Shown here piece by piece: positions 3,001 through 60,000 of a stretch of DNA of 64,000 nucleotides (position 1 is its first letter; each line of letters opens with the position of its first letter). This DNA is from Ophelia neglecta (taxonomy: Eukaryota), in contig OZ260667.1 of assembly GCA_965285935.1 (NCBI GenBank), positions 62,062,001 through 62,126,000 of the forward strand, read 5' to 3'. A program made the position numbers.

Positions 3001-6000
3001 TAAATATATTATGCAGCAGTTTTAATGTAAAGTTGTAGGTCCCACATGAAAATTTCTCCGATATGAGATTATACTTGATAATGGTTGTAGGATATAAGTT
3101 AATATAACGTATATTTAAATGACGCCGAAGTAATAATATATTCGGGCAAAATATACCGTGTCTTATGAACATGTGTTAACATCCATTTCTGCTCGTTTTG
3201 AAATGCTTCGTTTATTTTCTTCAGGTTTTCAGTGGAAACTCTGACGAGGATACTGAAGTAAAGCACACCCTGTGTCCCCCTCTAGTGGCCAGAAGAGTAA
3301 GGCTGTATCCTATTACCTATAACGGTTACTGCAGTGTCTGGTGGGAGCTGTACAGCTTCGCAGATGAATAAATTAAAGCAGAAGCGAGCATTTACTGACC
3401 GAAATATGAATGAACCGATAATATAACAAACGATTGCGATAACTGAGTGTGATGAGCACTGTCAGATAATCCAATTCATGTTAACGACCTCCAAACGACC
3501 TTGGACATTGATCCTGACGCTCTACTTATATACCGATTAATCCTTACCTTGGTAACTATATATCAATTTCGAAGGATTCTGTGCCAACAAGGTTATATTC
3601 AACATAATAATATGTATGCGATAAAACTTTGTTCACCATGGAAAACAGGTATGGAACTCAGTGCAGGTTGACGACCTCCAAACATCCTTGGACATTGATT
3701 GAATTCCCATTCCCAAATATTTACATAGTAAGCCATATATTGTACAAACAAGGTTATATTACCACGTTATAATGTCCGGGACAAAGCCTAGATTACCATG
3801 GAAACAGGAGGGTGTAATATGTATATAGGAATATCATGTATAACATTCTTGTCTGAAGAGTATATGAACCCATGTGTCAATATTTTATTTTCTCAAAATT
3901 CATCACAACTAGTTTACTACGCGCTAGTCTTTTCTGCACTGTTTGATTAAATGATTACTTCTTTCAGGTATGTTACACAATTATCTTCACAAGAATACCT
4001 TGCGAGACTCAGGGTTTTTTATCTCAAGGTTTTTATCTCAAGGAAAAGCAACAAAAACCAAATGTAGGTAGAGCAGTTAATAAATTTAAGTCCTTTCTTT
4101 TACTTCTTGTAATTCAGCTGGGAAATTATTGGGCTTTGAGTTTGGACTACGAGATTTAATGTAAAAATCTTACATTCTAAAATTATTCTACGGAAGAATG
4201 ATCAGGTATTGACAATAATAAGGTTTTAACTCGGCCTGAGCTGTCTAGGTCTACCCCCATGAGACCATGAATAACAAAGGAATCCTAATAAAGCAACATT
4301 CCTTCTGCCTCTGCTTGATTTAAACACCAACATCTATGATTTTTCAGCCGTTAAGCAATGCACACAAGTGACCGTCGCCGGTGTAGAACTATGCCCTGGC
4401 ATACCTCCGAAAAGAAAAACACGTAATTATCGAGTACTTGTTAAGATTTTTTCCCGGATTTCAATTAGGTCCCGGGTTCTCCTGTCCACAACTATGATAG
4501 TCTCTTTGGAGTTTTGCATCAGCTGTGATTTGTTTCCATGTTTTTTTAGAACATATGTGCAACCAATACCACTGAGGCTTTAGATAATAGGCTTTAGAGC
4601 TCTGCCCTGAAGTGTGTCAGTAGGACAAGGTTGCGTAGAGAGCATACTGTGAAATCACATCAGTGCACAGGTGACGTTTTTTGTGATGAAGGCTCAGGCA
4701 TCTCAAGTCAAATGATTATATCGGACACCCATTCATAATCCTTGACCATGTATATCATACAATAATTACTATCGTAGTCGGCTAGAGGCACGTTCAGACT
4801 CTGGTGCGGATATCGGGCACCTATTTAACGTGCTATAAGTATGGGTTGCACAAAACAGTTCGTTATGAACCACCTGATGCAACTAAGTAAACGGAACATT
4901 TTCGGGACAAACAGGATTGAGGTCTTGTTAGGATTCATGGCGAATGTGCCCTCAACTGTCTGAGAAGAGGAGAGCTGTGTAGCGGTAAGTAATCTAGACA
5001 AGGCATCCCTAGATATGTACTGTTTTAAACAGCAACACTGTTAATATTAATGATGCAATAGCAGTAAGTATCGCAAGGAATCTAACTAAGAGTCGCCTTA
5101 CACTCATAAGAGACTGGGGGAGGGGGGGGGGTCATGATTGTGCCAAAAAGCAGAAAATCTTGCCCGTTGAAAGTATATATTTTTTTAGATAAAATAAGTC
5201 AGGTAGATATAAAAATAATGTAAAGATGGTAGCATAATGCAAAGTCTGTACAATCAAAGTCAAGCACAATCGCCGACTGGTAAACATTTGTAGAATTTAA
5301 GGCATAGTTGCAGCTATTTCCCAAATGATGAAAATTAAACCAGTGATTCAAACATGACCACTTGGGTGCAGCACTGTCAACACCAATGAAATAAAATGGT
5401 GAGTAGTAATGGTATGGTATCCATTCGGCAAATAGAAATCAATTATGCTGTGAACTCTGACAGCCTCTGCCCCCCCCCCCCCGCCAACAGTAGTATTGTG
5501 AAAGTTAAAACGTTATGCTATGATTTCAATATGATATGTAAGAAATTAATACCAAAAAACTTGAAACATTTTGTTGATGATATTTGCCAAACGCACTCTG
5601 TCAAAAGGTTTTAAAATATTTGTACCCATCCCGTTCCTCATCTTACAGAGAATAACTCTGACACTCATACCTACCCTACCCTAGTCCGTGGATCGAGGTC
5701 GACGTTGGCAGTTTATTGTATACGAATTGAATTTAAATATTCTATGTAAAAAATGTAAATACAAGTAGTTATGGACTGGAACGTAACGAACGCTTATGAG
5801 ACAACATGAAGTTTATTCACAGAGCACACCGGAAACACATCCAAATCAACTTGCACGGACTAATGGCATCCATTGTATTCTGGACTACTTAGGGTATATA
5901 TGAACGCATATAACTTGTATAGCTCGCTCTGCTGCCTCTGCAGCTGCTGCTAGAGAGATCTCTATATACATAGGTTGCACAAATACTTCGCTGTGAACAA

Positions 6001-57000: not shown

Positions 57001-60000
57001 GGAAAGCAGTTAATAAATTTACGTCCTTCTTGTAATTCAGCTGGGAAATTATTGGGCTTTGAGTTTTGACTACGAGATTTAATGTAATAATCTTACATTC
57101 TGAAATTATTCTACGGAAGAATTATCAGGTTTTGATAATACTAAGGTTTTAACTCGGCCTGAGCTGTCTAGGGCTACCCTCATGGGACCAGAATAACAAA
57201 GGAATCCTTATAGAGCAACATTCCTGCCTCTGCATGATTTAAACACAAACATCTATGATTTTTCTGCCGTTAAGCAATTCACACAAGTGACCGTTGGCGG
57301 TGTAGAACTATGCCCTGGCCCACCTCCGAAAAGAATAACACGTAATTATAGAGTACAAATCGTTAAGATTTTGTCCTGTATATTCTTAAAAGGTTCTAAC
57401 ATAAGTTGACTTAAATTTAGTTACCCGGGTTTCAATTAGGTCCCGGGTTCTCCTGTCTATAACTATGATAGTCTCTTTGGAGTTTTGCATCAGCTGTGAT
57501 TTGTTTCCATGATTTTTAGAACATATGTGCAACCAATACCACTGAGGCTTTAGATAATAGGCTTTAGAGCTCTGCCCTGAAGTGTGCCAGTAGGACAAGG
57601 TTGCGTAGAGGGCATACTGTGAAATCACATCAGTGCAGAGGCGGCGTTTCTTGTGCATCTCAAGCCAAATGTTTATATCGGACACCCATTCATAATCCTT
57701 GACCATGTATATCATACAATTATTACTATCGTAGCCGGTTAGAGACACGTTCAGACTCTAGTGCGGATATCGGGTAACTATTTAAGGTGCTATAAGTATG
57801 GGTTGCACAAAATCGAGTTCGTTATGAACCACCTGATGCAACTAAGTAAACGGAACATTTTCGCAACAAACAGAATTGAGGTTTGGTAGGATTCATGGCG
57901 AATGTGCCCTCAGCTGTCTGAGAAGAGGAGGGCTGTGTAGAGGGGTTTTTGTAAGACCATAGCAGTAAGTAATCTAGACAAGGCATCCCTAGATATGTAC
58001 TGTTTTAAGCAGGAACAATGTTAATATTAATGATGCAATAGCAGTAAATATCGCAAGGAAACTAAGAGTCGCCTTACACTCATAACAGGCTGGTAACGGT
58101 TCATCGCCGGGCGGAAGCAGGGAGGGGGGGGGGGGGTTCATGAGTGTGCAAAAAAGCAGAACATCTTGCACGTTAAAAGTATATATTATTTTGAGATAAT
58201 ATAAGTCAGGTAGATATAAAAATAATGTAAAGATGGTAGCATAATGTAAAGTCTGTACAATCTAAGTCAAACACAATGGCAGACTGGTAATTATTTGTAG
58301 AATTTAAGGCATAGTTGCAGCTATTTCCCAAATGATGAAAAATTAAACCAGTGAATCAAACATGACCACTTGGGTGCAGCACTGTCAACACCAATGAAAT
58401 AAATGAAATAAAATGGTGAGTAGTAATGTTATGGTATCCATTTGGCAAATAGGAACCAATTCTGCCGTGAAAGCTGAGCCTCAAAGTAGTATTTTGAAAG
58501 TTAAGAAGTAGTGCTATAATTTCAATATGATATGTAAGAAGTTAGTACGAAATATTATGTTTAATATTGTTGATGATATTTGCCCAACGCACTTTGTCAA
58601 AAAGTTTTAAATTATTTGTACTCATCCCGGCATCATCCCAGAGACTTACACTATGTTAATAACCCCGACACTGATACTTACCCTGCCCTAGTCGTTGGAT
58701 CGAGGTCGATGTCGGCAGAGTTAACTGTATACGAATTGAATTTGATTACATTAAAACGAAATGTAAGTAGTTTTGGACTGGAACGTAACGAACGCTTATG
58801 AGACAACATGCAGTTTATTCACAGAACACACCGGAAACACACCCAAATCAACTTGCAGGGACAACTGGTATCCATTGAATTCTTGACTATCTACGGTATA
58901 TGTACACGCATGTTACTTAGATAGCTCGCTCTGCTGCCTCTTCGCTGCTGCTAGAGAGATCTCTATATACATAGGTTGCACAAACAATTCGCTATGAACA
59001 ACCTGATAGCGTGGGTGTTGAACTGATCGAAACAACATTATAGTATTCAATTCCAACTGTATCACCTGCATGAATATCTAATACCTGATAGCCATGATAC
59101 TAGGAGGATCGATGGATACGCTTTTAATCACTAAGGGCCATGTCATGTAAAGAAGTGGAGGATGTCGAAAATGGGCTAAGTAGTAAAGAGGCATAAACGC
59201 ACCGACAAAACAACATAATATTGCCTGGTCACCGTCATCACGTATTGTGTTGTTTCTATCTAATCACACATGACTCCATTAGGTTTGTTGTCGTAAAGTG
59301 TTTTCCAGCTGAAGACTATGTACACTGCCATTGTGTTTATGAAAGCTGCAATAAACACGGAGCAATTATCATCGATCTTTTCAGTGTTTTACATATACTT
59401 CTTCATATAGTTTCCAGGTCTGGGGGGTATTATATTGTCGTCTTTCATATTTTGTCTATTTAGTTAATAAGAATGTGTGTCATTTGCCAGTCTTAGAATC
59501 GTTGGCAACTACATATAGGCTAGTCAAACTAGTTGTGATAACACAATGACACCATCGTTGACCAGATGGGGCGCAACTTTATAAACATACAGTAGCACTG
59601 TTAGCGACATGGATGGACGAGACAAGTTCCAGCTATTTCTGTTCATGACTCTACTAGTGACTTGTGTGTTCTGCGCCGAATGTGAATTTGTTTCCTTGCA
59701 ATTTAGTAAGGGGAAAATATGCACAGCAAACACACTTGAGGTTTTAGTTAAGAGTCATGCAGAATGTGCCGTAAAATGTCTGAGCCGAGGAGGGCTGTGC
59801 AGAGGGTATTTTGTGGGACCGCATCAGGGCGGAGATGGCTTTCTTTGTGATATAGACTCAGGCAACACTAGTACTCTGCTTTATTATACAAAAACAGTCA
59901 CTGGAAAGGACTTCTATCAAGGTAATCATTTATTTTATTGAGAGTCGTTTACAGATATAACATTTTATGTAATGGCTTGCGGGTTGCATATACTTTATGT

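What the first reader, a model, noticed from the sequence alone, without database searches (positions are those of the whole stretch)
4468..57965. Large excess of PAN first exons over discoidin exon sets: variable-head/constant-body modularity
About 20 exon-1-like sequences occur (269, 4468, 4881, 6622, 15858, 17490, 21750, 22757, 23705, 28889, 30015, 35745, 36655, 37069, 38190, 42260, 44526, 57440, 57840, 59609), against 8 complete exon 3-5 sets. Every complete exon 1 ends in phase 1, and exons 2 and 3 start in phase 1, so any head is frame-compatible with any downstream body. The relics fall into several classes, some inside intron 1. Inference: the locus shuffles, or once alternatively spliced, PAN heads onto discoidin bodies, analogous to variable-first-exon clusters such as protocadherin or UGT1.
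Basis: partly seen in the sequence, partly recalled or inferred. Interest (0 to 1): 0.72.

Follow-up and report, generated by a model that had tools for sequence, protein, structure and literature searches.

The report
Dead first exons in gene array
A tandem array of eight small secreted discoidin-domain genes carries twelve dead copies of its first exon; these look like debris of partial duplications and deletions that was later copied along with larger blocks, not a working set of interchangeable first exons.

Summary
Exons 3 and 4 have 8 copies each. Exon 5 has 8 plus 2 relics. Random sequence gave 0 hits. The phase-1 compatibility is real.

The protocadherin/UGT1 analogy fails its defining features. 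Every body has its own adjacent head. No body has two intact heads. All 12 extra heads are disabled, and copies within a class share lesions, so they died before being copied. The 12 relics reduce to about 6 ancestral loci that were multiplied by block duplication. Head and body classes agree in 7 of 8 genes. The exception, G3, lost its own head by a 1.8-kb deletion and is a pseudogene. Nearest-paralog switches occur all along the genes, not only in intron 1. Only 4 of 8 genes are intact.

The head excess is not a detection artefact. The inferred ancestral unit had three heads per body, so former alternative first-exon use cannot be excluded.

"PAN" is unverified. "Discoidin" is confirmed for exons 4 and 5.

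The parts
269..3371 (+). G1, intact gene. Class I head 269-578, no exon 2, exon 3 1917-2077, exon 4 2447-2596, exon 5 3225-3371.
   Evidence: Searches gave stop-free translations. Searches gave splice sites and 768 nt in frame. Exon 2 is absent.
4467..4714 (+). Relic head, class III. No ATG, a frameshift and 3 in-frame stops.
   Evidence: It is the positional counterpart of 21749, 42261 and 57438.
4877..5036 (+). Relic head, class IV. Truncated at the 5' end, with frameshifts and stops.
   Evidence: It is the counterpart of 57836.
6622..13463 (+). G2, intact gene. Class II head 6622-6934, exon 2 7459-7494, exon 3 7920-8077, exon 4 12570-12716, exon 5 13317-13463. Intron 3 holds a non-LTR retrotransposon (about 8181-12113).
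15858..20702 (+). G3, pseudogene. Class VI head 15858-16170 with a stop at codon 34. Relic head class V at 17448-17731 in intron 1. Exon 2 18197-18232, exon 3 19232-19391 (1-bp deletion), exon 4 19786-19935, exon 5 20556-20702.
   Evidence: The equivalent of G6 36161-37980, which holds the class I head, is missing.
21749..21960 (+). Relic head, class III.
   Evidence: It lies in the block 1737-4878 ~ 19056-22135.
22758..22826 (+). Relic: the first ~45-70 bases of a class II head together with ~400 bases of its upstream flank (22358-22803). This is a partial 5' duplication.
   Evidence: (22358-22803 ~ 23309-23750 at 72% and ~ 6225-6667).
23705..26254 (+). G4, pseudogene. The class II head is cut to 23705-23823 by an internal deletion that also removed the donor site. 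Exon 2 24403-24438, exon 3 24864-25021, exon 4 25381-25527, exon 5 26108-26254.
   Evidence: (23050-23819 ~ 5952-6736, then 23816-24299 ~ 6952-7435).
27703..27788 (+). Relic exon 5 (a body relic).
   Evidence: (E 1.2e-06). It is a paralog of 34806-34878 (27705-27950 ~ 34791-35038, 81%).
28889..33623 (+). G5, probable pseudogene. Class I head 28889-29207 has an open frame but the last conserved Cys is replaced. Relic head 30014-30200 lies in intron 1. Exon 2 30508-30543, exon 3 30921-31081, exon 4 32770-32919, exon 5 33477-33623 with an in-frame stop.
34806..34878 (+). Relic exon 5 (a body relic).
   Evidence: (E 2.8e-08).
35744..35792 (+). Remnant (last ~49 bases) of a class VI head, followed by the start of its intron.
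   Evidence: E 6.6e-08; 16124-16344 ~ 35744-35981 (79%) and 14578-15163 ~ 35112-35729 (81%).
36655..36744 (+). Relic fragment of a class I head (about 90 bases).
37069..41121 (+). G6, intact gene. Class I head 37069-37378, relic head class V 38121-38421 in intron 1, exon 2 38920-38955, exon 3 39506-39666, exon 4 40220-40369, exon 5 40975-41121.
   Evidence: 804 nt in frame.
42261..42571 (+). Relic head, class III; the most complete copy. ATG is changed to ATA, with 3 frameshifts and 1 stop.
   Evidence: Flanks 41956-42510 ~ 57125-57667.
44526..56377 (+). G7, pseudogene. Class I head 44526-44828 has a 7-bp frameshifting deletion. A BEL/Pao LTR retrotransposon (45067-53186) sits in intron 1. Exon 2 53996-54031, exon 3 54752-54912, exon 4 55555-55704, exon 5 56231-56377.
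57438..57664 (+). Relic head, class III.
57836..58017 (+). Relic head, class IV.
59609..62296 (+). G8, intact gene and the reference model. Head 59609-59921, exon 2 60445-60480, exon 3 60906-61063, exon 4 61627-61773, exon 5 62150-62296 (801 nt).
63258..64000 (+). G9, a type I body without any head. Exon 2 is at 63375-63410; the rest runs off the window.
   Evidence: (63258-63642 ~ 53879-54260 at 92%; 63559-64000 ~ 1453-1894 at 98.6%). One search found no head hit between 59609 and 64000.

Best explanation
The window is a head-to-tail array of a lineage-specific gene family evolving by birth and death. Each gene encodes a signal peptide plus a small Cys-rich head (exon 1), a 12-residue linker (exon 2) and one discoidin (F5/8 type C) domain (exons 3-5).

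The extra first exons are dead debris. About six ancestral events left a head, or part of one, without a body. Each event was either a short tandem duplication of promoter plus exon 1, or a deletion of a body. These relics were already disabled when larger blocks holding them were duplicated. That block duplication raised about 6 relic loci to 12 copies. The blocks have the order: type I gene, relic III, relic IV, type II gene.

The same turnover continues today through deletions, conversion-like patchwork among paralogs and retrotransposon insertions. Four of the 8 genes are pseudogenes.

Shown here: the copies, their lesions, their positional correspondence, the mosaic structure and the broken genes. 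Inferred: the order of events, and that the relics were never, or only briefly, used.
For: (1) Each of the 8 bodies follows its own head, and no body has two intact heads.
(2) All 12 extra heads lack an ATG, are truncated, or carry frameshifts or stops. Copies within a class share lesions. The two class V copies share 4 frameshifting deletions and 2 stops. The two class IV copies share 2 frameshifts and 2 stops. 4467 and 57438 share 1 frameshift and 3 stops. They therefore died before the blocks were copied.
(3) Relics sit at corresponding places in paralogous blocks: III at 4467/21749/42261/57438, IV at 4877/57836, V at 17448/38121/30014, and VI at 15858 with its remnant at 35744.
(4) Relic identity between paralogous blocks is not significantly above flank identity: 95.2% vs 93.1% (p=0.18), 87.0% vs 82.8% (p=0.11) and 85.4% vs 80.5% (p=0.06).
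(5) A partial 5' duplication is seen directly: 22358-22803 ~ 23309-23750.
(6) Deletions are seen directly. G4's head is cut internally. G3 lacks the segment holding the class I head. G1 and G7 lack relic V through a ~480-bp deletion with short repeats at the junction. G9 is a body without a head.
(7) Body relics exist too: two exon 5 relics.
(8) Head class and body type agree in 7 of 8 genes.
(9) Nearest-paralog switches occur inside the body as well. G1 is closest to G7 at 1251 (94% vs 77% for G3), closest to G3 at 3001 (88% vs 75% for G7), and closest to the G7 side again at 4501 (91% vs 77%).
(10) G3, G4, G5 and G7 are broken.
Against: Heads without bodies still outnumber bodies without heads after collapsing copies: about 6 loci against 1 exon 5 relic locus plus G9. 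The simulation says this is not a detection bias.

No trace of exons 2-5 lies next to any relic head, even at E<=10 with filters off. The gaps between successive heads (0.4-2 kb) are too short for bodies. So 'remains of whole-gene duplicates' is not shown.

The inferred ancestral unit has three heads in front of each body (VI-I-V and III-IV-II). That is what a small variable-first-exon gene would look like.

Relics are slightly more alike than their flanks in all three comparisons, although none is significant alone.

The class VI head has kept its ATG, its donor, its frame and its conserved cysteines, with only one stop. Deep relations among head classes are unresolved (AU p 0.15-0.39).
Confidence: 0.7

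Rival explanations
1. A decayed variable-first-exon gene. In the ancestral repeat unit, each discoidin body was served by two or three promoter-bearing first exons used alternatively (VI, I and V for type I; III, IV and II for type II), as in GCNT2 or UGT1. Later all but one head per body decayed.
For: Three heads per body are reconstructed from positional homology. Every head carries its own ATG, signal peptide and domain, and ends in phase 1, matching exons 2 and 3. No body remains lie between the heads, and detection bias is excluded. The class VI head is nearly intact. Its dN/dS against class II is 0.60, which is below 1. After its own head was deleted, G3's body is headed by VI.
Against: No copy of the unit in this window has two intact heads. 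Relics V and IV were already disabled before the blocks split. The same layout follows from short 5' duplications or body deletions with no splicing role. A dN/dS of 0.60 on about 74 differences cannot separate constraint from mixed decay. There are no transcript data.
Confidence: 0.15
2. A working diversity system today. Relic or neighbouring heads are currently spliced, in cis or in trans, onto non-adjacent bodies to generate combinatorial proteins.
For: The only support is the universal phase-1 compatibility and the shared orientation of all 20 heads and all bodies.
Against: All 12 extra heads are non-coding. Several lack a GT donor. Intact genes end in a stop codon before the next head. 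Half of the genes are pseudogenes.
Confidence: 0.03
3. Transposon-mediated capture. The heads were picked up and scattered by a mobile element, as in Pack-type or Helitron-like gene-fragment capture.
For: Relic V is a clean ~480-bp presence/absence difference inside intron 1. Two retrotransposons are active in the array.
Against: No terminal inverted repeats or target-site duplications bracket the relics in 3400-6700. The relic V junction shows only a short microhomology. Three gene lineages carry relic V while the G1/G7 pair lacks it, which fits a deletion. All 20 heads have the same orientation and sit at collinear places in paralogous blocks.
Confidence: 0.03

Closest known systems
Variable-first-exon clusters (UGT1, clustered protocadherins, GCNT2)
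   Same: As in UGT1, the first exon encodes a signal peptide plus the N-terminal domain, and the later exons encode the C-terminal domain. First exons are arrayed in tandem in one orientation, are frame-compatible with the next exon, evolve by birth and death, and include pseudo or relic copies. The UGT1/GCNT2 description comes from passages of PMC1885805 read and from the start of the abstract of PMC3325998 in the listing. Three heads per body in the inferred ancestral unit recalls GCNT2, which has three variable and two constant exons (PMC1885805).
   Different: There is no single shared constant region: the 8 bodies each lie behind their own head. At most one head per body is intact. The extra heads are all dead. 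There is no transcript evidence.
Birth-and-death tandem multigene families (MHC, Ig, TCR, as named in PMC1885805; the general concept is recalled)
   Same: Same-strand tandem paralogs, block duplications, pseudogenes among the copies (4 of 8), partial gene relics, conversion-like mosaics and copy-specific transposon insertions.
   Different: The debris is skewed towards 5' ends: about 6 head loci against 1 exon 5 relic locus plus one headless body. The head domain has no detectable relatives outside the window.
F5/8 type C (discoidin) domain proteins (Pfam PF00754): coagulation factor V/VIII C domains, Dictyostelium discoidins, neuropilin b domains, lactadherin, retinoschisin
   Same: The exon 5 profile matches the C-terminal third of the domain in factor V/VIII-type chains (best E 1.6e-11). 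The exon 4 profile matches the middle of discoidin-2 (5.7e-07), the CASPR2 discoidin domain and lactadherin.
   Different: Here it is a single domain split over three exons, behind a novel head. The exon 3 profile has no significant PDB match. Single exons stay under Pfam's cut-off.
PAN/Apple domain (Pfam PF00024)
   Same: A small secreted domain with five conserved cysteines. PAN_1 is the only Pfam family hit by more than one head: 3 of 7, best E 0.051.
   Different: The scores are below the curated cut-off (12.5 vs 21.4 bits). There was no PAN hit among PDB chains. There were no relatives in 1.84 billion representatives. The fold could not be predicted (pLDDT 46 and 43).

Membership tests
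Variable-first-exon cluster (UGT1 / Pcdh / GCNT2 type) | Two or more intact first exons in tandem upstream of one set of later exons | tested here: not met
   Each of the 8 bodies has at most one intact head. All 12 additional heads are disabled.
Variable-first-exon cluster (UGT1 / Pcdh / GCNT2 type) | A single shared constant region downstream of the whole array | tested here: not met
   There are 8 separate exon 3-5 sets, plus a ninth body starting at the window end, interleaved with the heads.
Variable-first-exon cluster (UGT1 / Pcdh / GCNT2 type) | Each first exon encodes a signal peptide plus the N-terminal domain and is splice-phase compatible with the first common exon | tested here: met
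   Exon 1 is 310, 313 or 319 nt and ends in phase 1. Exon 2 is 36 nt (phase 1 to 1). Exon 3 starts in phase 1.
Variable-first-exon cluster (UGT1 / Pcdh / GCNT2 type) | Own promoter before each first exon, and transcripts joining each first exon to the common exons | not testable with these tools
   No transcript or promoter-activity data are available. Upstream homology of 250-400 bases accompanies class I, II and VI heads and relic 22758.
Birth-and-death tandem gene array | Same-strand tandem paralogs with pseudogenes, partial copies, block duplications and copy-specific insertions or deletions | tested here: met
   All features lie on the + strand. Four of 8 genes are broken. Blocks are shown. 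TE insertions are private to G2 and G7. Deletions are shown.
F5/8 type C (discoidin) domain, PF00754 | Significant profile match to known discoidin domains | tested here: met
   Tested exon by exon. Exon 5 profile against PDB chains: E 1.6e-11. Exon 4 profile: 5.7e-07. Exon 3 profile: no match at E<0.01. Pfam on single exon 5 ORFs gave 18.8 and 14.1 bits against a cut-off of 28.2. The joined domain was not searched.
PAN/Apple domain, PF00024 | Profile match at or above Pfam's gathering score | tested here: not met
   Three of 7 heads match PAN_1 at E<=10, best E 0.051. The one bit score shown, for the first head, is 12.5 against a cut-off of 21.4. There were no hits at E<=1 when the signal peptide was included.
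PAN/Apple domain, PF00024 | PAN fold (a helix packed on a beta-sheet, tied by disulfides; recalled) | tested here: inconclusive
   Two AlphaFold2 runs gave mean pLDDT 46.3 and 43.1. No fold search was run on such models.

The most novel reading that the evidence does not exclude
The ancestral repeat unit of this array was a pair of small variable-first-exon genes. Three promoter-bearing heads (VI, I, V) alternately spliced onto one type I discoidin body, and three (III, IV, II) spliced onto one type II body. This would be an invertebrate, lectin-like counterpart of GCNT2/UGT1 that has since decayed to one head per body. G3 (head VI on a type I body) would be its last trace.
Probability: 0.12. 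Interest if true: 0.55.

Novelty: new member of a known kind. Interest (0 to 1): 0.3.

Why it matters
If the ordinary reading is right, this is a clean, well-resolved example of how a young secreted-protein family turns over. It shows block duplication, 5'-end debris, deletions that swap or remove heads, conversion-like patchwork and fresh retrotransposon hits. It is useful mainly as a warning for annotation: 12 exon-like relics, and 4 pseudogenes among 8 gene-like units.

Two points deserve follow-up. First, the debris is skewed towards first exons, and detection power does not explain this. Second, the head domain has no detectable relatives. If other species showed several intact heads per body, the family would become an invertebrate case of variable first exons feeding a carbohydrate- or lipid-binding discoidin domain.

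Tried and rejected
- Homologue searches, exon by exon, all found nothing. These were: G2 head against longer proteins; G8 head by phmmer against 1.84 billion representatives (0 hits at E<=0.001); G8 exon 5 against longer proteins; and the head profile A5 against longer proteins. The taxon and any annotated relatives therefore stay unknown.
- The ESM Atlas was not available for a new sequence.
- Two structure predictions of the head were too poor to use, so no fold search was run.
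- The PDB profile search with the head gave one chance-level hit (E 0.39).
- AU tests on the 19-row head tree rejected none of four groupings: G3 head with class I, p 0.39; G3 head with class II, p 0.39; V plus 30025 with class I, p 0.15; III plus IV with class II, p 0.39. The 35744 remnant was left out of that tree. Deep relations among head classes stay open. A strict topological incongruence test for G3 is uninformative, so that argument rests on distances and positional homology.
- The codon-position test for past coding constraint had no power. Even intact pairs show no third-position excess (G1/G6: 11/8/14).
- The first dN/dS run misaligned codons between classes and is discarded. One search replaces it.
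- The transposon-capture idea was rejected: no inverted repeats or target duplications were found around relics in 3400-6700.
- A relaxed scan (E<=10, filters off) found no further body relics, only short chance-level hits.
- Rfam, tRNA and tandem-repeat scans gave nothing relevant.
- The literature search for discoidin, PAN, apple domain and tandem (15 of 757 papers listed) surfaced no PAN-discoidin tandem family. The leech paper PMC7191736 treats the two domains separately (passages).
- Complex prediction and genome contigs (bacteria and archaea only) were not used.

Full report
**What the window is.** The 64-kb window (36-49% G+C, no N) is a head-to-tail array on the + strand. Reading one clean copy (G8) gives a five-exon gene of 801 nt:
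- exon 1, 59609-59921: ATG, signal peptide and a small Cys-rich domain; 313 nt, ending in phase 1;
- exon 2, 60445-60480: 36 nt, phase 1 to 1;
- exon 3, 60906-61063;
- exon 4, 61627-61773;
- exon 5, 62150-62296, ending in TGA.

All splice sites are AG/GT. All searches, folds and counts below were done exon by exon. The joined coding sequence or protein was never built or searched. I take nothing in this window for human.

**Checking the observation.** I built an HMM from the 7 full-length gene-linked heads only and ran it once.
- The weakest-looking one, 35744-35792, is the last ~49 bases of a head followed by its intron start.
- Exon 3 and exon 4 each have exactly 8 copies.
- Twenty random 64-kb sequences gave no hit for any of the four HMMs.
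- The phase claims hold. Class I heads are 310 nt (319 in G5). Class II and VI heads are 313 nt. Exon 2 is 36 nt in all 8 copies seen. G1 lacks exon 2 but stays in frame.

**State of the genes.** Only G1, G2, G6 and G8 are intact. Their exon translations are stop-free and their lengths are in frame. The others are broken:
- G3 has a stop at codon 34 of exon 1 and a 1-bp deletion in exon 3.
- G4's head is cut by an internal deletion that removed most of the domain and the donor.
- G5 has lost a conserved Cys in the head and has an in-frame stop in exon 5.
- G7 has a 7-bp frameshifting deletion in exon 1. It also has a BEL/Pao LTR retrotransposon in intron 1 (45067-53186), with 1149-bp LTRs that are 100% identical and a 5-bp target duplication. 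G1 shows the empty site.
- G2 is intact but carries a non-LTR retrotransposon in intron 3.
- A ninth body (G9) starts at 63258 with exon 2 and no head.

**What the domains are.**
- The exon 5 profile matches the C-terminal part of factor V/VIII-type discoidin domains (best E 1.6e-11).
- The exon 4 profile matches the middle of discoidin-2 (5.7e-07), the CASPR2 discoidin domain and lactadherin.
- The exon 3 profile has no significant match. 'Discoidin' is therefore confirmed for exons 4 and 5.
- The head is another matter. Pfam gives only sub-threshold PAN_1 hits: 3 of 7 heads, best E 0.051; the one score shown is 12.5 bits against a 21.4 cut-off.
- PDB chains give nothing.
- Phmmer against 1.84 billion representatives gives 0 hits, and three word-indexed searches give none.
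- Two AlphaFold2 models are unusable (pLDDT 46 and 43).
- 'PAN' is a plausible guess, not a finding.

**Classes of heads and bodies.** Each of exons 3, 4 and 5 splits the bodies into type II {G2, G4, G8} and type I {G1, G3, G5, G6, G7} with 100/100 support. The tree of 19 head rows (the 35744 remnant left out) gives these starred clades:
- class I: G1, G7, G6, G5 and fragment 36655;
- class II: G2, G8, G4;
- class III: 4467, 21749, 42261, 57438;
- class IV: 4877, 57836;
- class V: 17448, 38121;
- singles: G3's head (here called VI), 30014 and 22758.

Deep relations among classes are unresolved (AU p 0.15-0.39). Head class matches body type in 7 of 8 genes. G3's head is 64-66% identical to class I heads and 76% identical to class II heads. 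G3's body exons are 85-93% identical to the other type I bodies.

**Where the relics come from.** All 12 extra heads are disabled: no ATG, truncation, frameshifting indels or stops.
- Copies within a class share lesions. The class V pair shares 4 frameshifts and 2 stops. The class IV pair shares 2 frameshifts and 2 stops. 4467 and 57438 share 1 frameshift and 3 stops. They were dead before they were copied.
- They sit at corresponding places in paralogous blocks. Block 2950-8184 ~ 55953-61170 carries III, IV and the class II head. Block 1737-4878 ~ 19056-22135 carries III. Block 41956-42510 ~ 57125-57667 places 42261 with class III. Block 17301-18631 ~ 37980-39386 carries V.
- 30014 lies between the same flanks as V.
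- 35744 is the remnant of a VI head behind the same upstream block as G3's head.

The 12 relics therefore reduce to about 6 loci. The ancestral unit reads: VI, I, V, type I body, III, IV, II, type II body.
- G3 lacks the equivalent of 36161-37980, which holds the class I head. Its odd head is therefore the result of a deletion.
- G1 and G7 lost relic V by a ~480-bp deletion.
- 22358-22803 is a partial duplication of a class II promoter plus the start of exon 1.

**Are the relics constrained, and is the head a module?** Between paralogous blocks the relics are slightly but not significantly more alike than the neighbouring non-coding DNA:
- 95.2% vs 93.1%, p=0.18;
- 87.0% vs 82.8%, p=0.11;
- 85.4% vs 80.5%, p=0.06.

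All three differences go the same way, which I report as unexplained. Two of the comparisons share a lineage.

A 250-base nearest-paralog scan shows that type I genes are patchworks, with switches in introns 1, 2, 3 and 4 and in the flanks.
- G1 is closest to G7 up to exon 3 (94% vs 77% for G3 at 1251). It is closest to G3 from intron 3 through exon 5 (88% vs 75% for G7 at 3001). It is closest to the G7 side again downstream (91% vs 77% at 4501).
- G2 and G8 are 96-100% identical from 320 bases upstream of exon 1 into intron 3, introns included, while the DNA further upstream is 81-94% identical. This suggests recent conversion or duplication.
- So there is no special hinge between head and body.

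Between types, heads are somewhat more diverged than bodies (dN 0.41 vs 0.29; dS 1.1-1.3 vs 0.7-0.9), with similar dN/dS of 0.3-0.4. The dS difference is marginal for G1/G2 and absent for G6/G2, by my reading of the counts. G2 and G8 differ by 8 non-synonymous and 1 synonymous change in the head, against 4 and 6 in the body (Fisher p=0.057). That is a hint only.

Decayed copies simulated at 30, 40 and 45% substitution were found as follows:

| Substitution | Exon 1 | Exon 3 | Exon 4 | Exon 5 |
|---|---|---|---|---|
| 30% | 60/60 | 58/60 | 58/60 | 58/60 |
| 40% | 39/60 | 32/60 | 29/60 | 34/60 |
| 45% | 29/60 | 16/60 | 12/60 | 14/60 |

- A three-exon body would therefore be seen about as often as a head, so the lack of body remains next to relic heads is real.
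- A relaxed scan found none either.
- The spacing between successive heads is 0.4-2 kb.
- Three heads per body in the ancestral unit is the layout of a small variable-first-exon gene such as GCNT2 (passages of PMC1885805).
- Head VI is nearly intact, with dN/dS of 0.60 against class II.

I therefore cannot exclude that heads were once used alternatively.

**Comparison with the known.** UGT1-type clusters are defined by several intact first exons, each with its own promoter, spliced to one common set of downstream exons (start of the abstract of PMC3325998; passages of PMC1885805). Here the first two features were tested and not met. The encoded-content and phase feature is met. The transcript feature cannot be tested. 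The array does meet the features of a birth-and-death tandem family.

**Verdict.** It is not supported as a protocadherin/UGT1-like system. The array is a new member of a known kind, of modest interest.

**Not checked.** Transcripts, other haplotypes and sister species were not available. The closed metagenome and viral contig collections were not searched. The taxon of origin stays unknown.

Noticed in passing
window 45067-53186: A BEL/Pao-type LTR retrotransposon with hits to DUF1759, aspartyl protease, Pao peptidase A17 and integrase zinc-binding domains, and long open frames. The two 1149-bp LTRs are 100% identical (TG...CA ends) and there is a 5-bp target duplication. G1 shows the empty site, so this is a very recent insertion into intron 1 of G7.
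   Followed up: partly
window about 8181-12113: A non-LTR retrotransposon (endonuclease plus reverse transcriptase, with a 903-codon open frame) inserted in intron 3 of the otherwise intact G2. It is absent from the 97-99% identical paralog G8.
   Followed up: partly
window 63258-64000 versus 1453-1894: G9 is a type I body that begins with exon 2 and has no head. From 63559 on it is 98.6% identical to G1, at an offset of about 62.1 kb. This may mean that the whole window is one unit of a recent higher-order repeat.
   Followed up: partly
window 27703-27788 and 34806-34878: Two relic copies of exon 5, about 81% identical to each other with their flanks and strongly diverged from both body types. 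They are remains of at least one further, lost body.
   Followed up: partly
window 6300-8184 versus 59290-61170: G2 and G8 are 96-100% identical from about 320 bases upstream of exon 1 into intron 3, introns included, while the DNA further upstream is 81-94% identical. Downstream of exon 5, G2 is closer to G4 (90-93%) than to G8 (82%). This looks like a conversion or recombination tract.
   Followed up: partly
window 629-1210 (also about 37446-37907, 44975-44998 and 53457-53484): Intron 1 of class I genes holds a degenerate repeat with a period of about 90-107 bases (6 copies in G1). Its core motif resembles codons 3-12 of exon 1, giving chance-level head-HMM hits (E 0.05-10).
   Followed up: partly
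window 6622-6934 versus 59609-59921: The two youngest intact heads differ by 8 non-synonymous and 1 synonymous change, with 7 of the 9 at first codon positions. Their bodies differ by 4 and 6 (Fisher p=0.057). This is a hint of relaxed or positive selection on the head.
   Followed up: partly
heads at window 269, 6622, 37069 and 59609: The Cys-rich head domain has no detectable relative. Phmmer against 1.84 billion representatives gave 0 hits, three word-indexed searches gave none, and Pfam gave only sub-threshold PAN_1.
   Followed up: yes
window 13780-13959, 62627-62863, 15068-15198 and 35589-35717: There are 94-bp tandem repeats downstream of type II genes. There are 32- and 37-bp tandem repeats in the block that precedes type I genes.
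   Followed up: no
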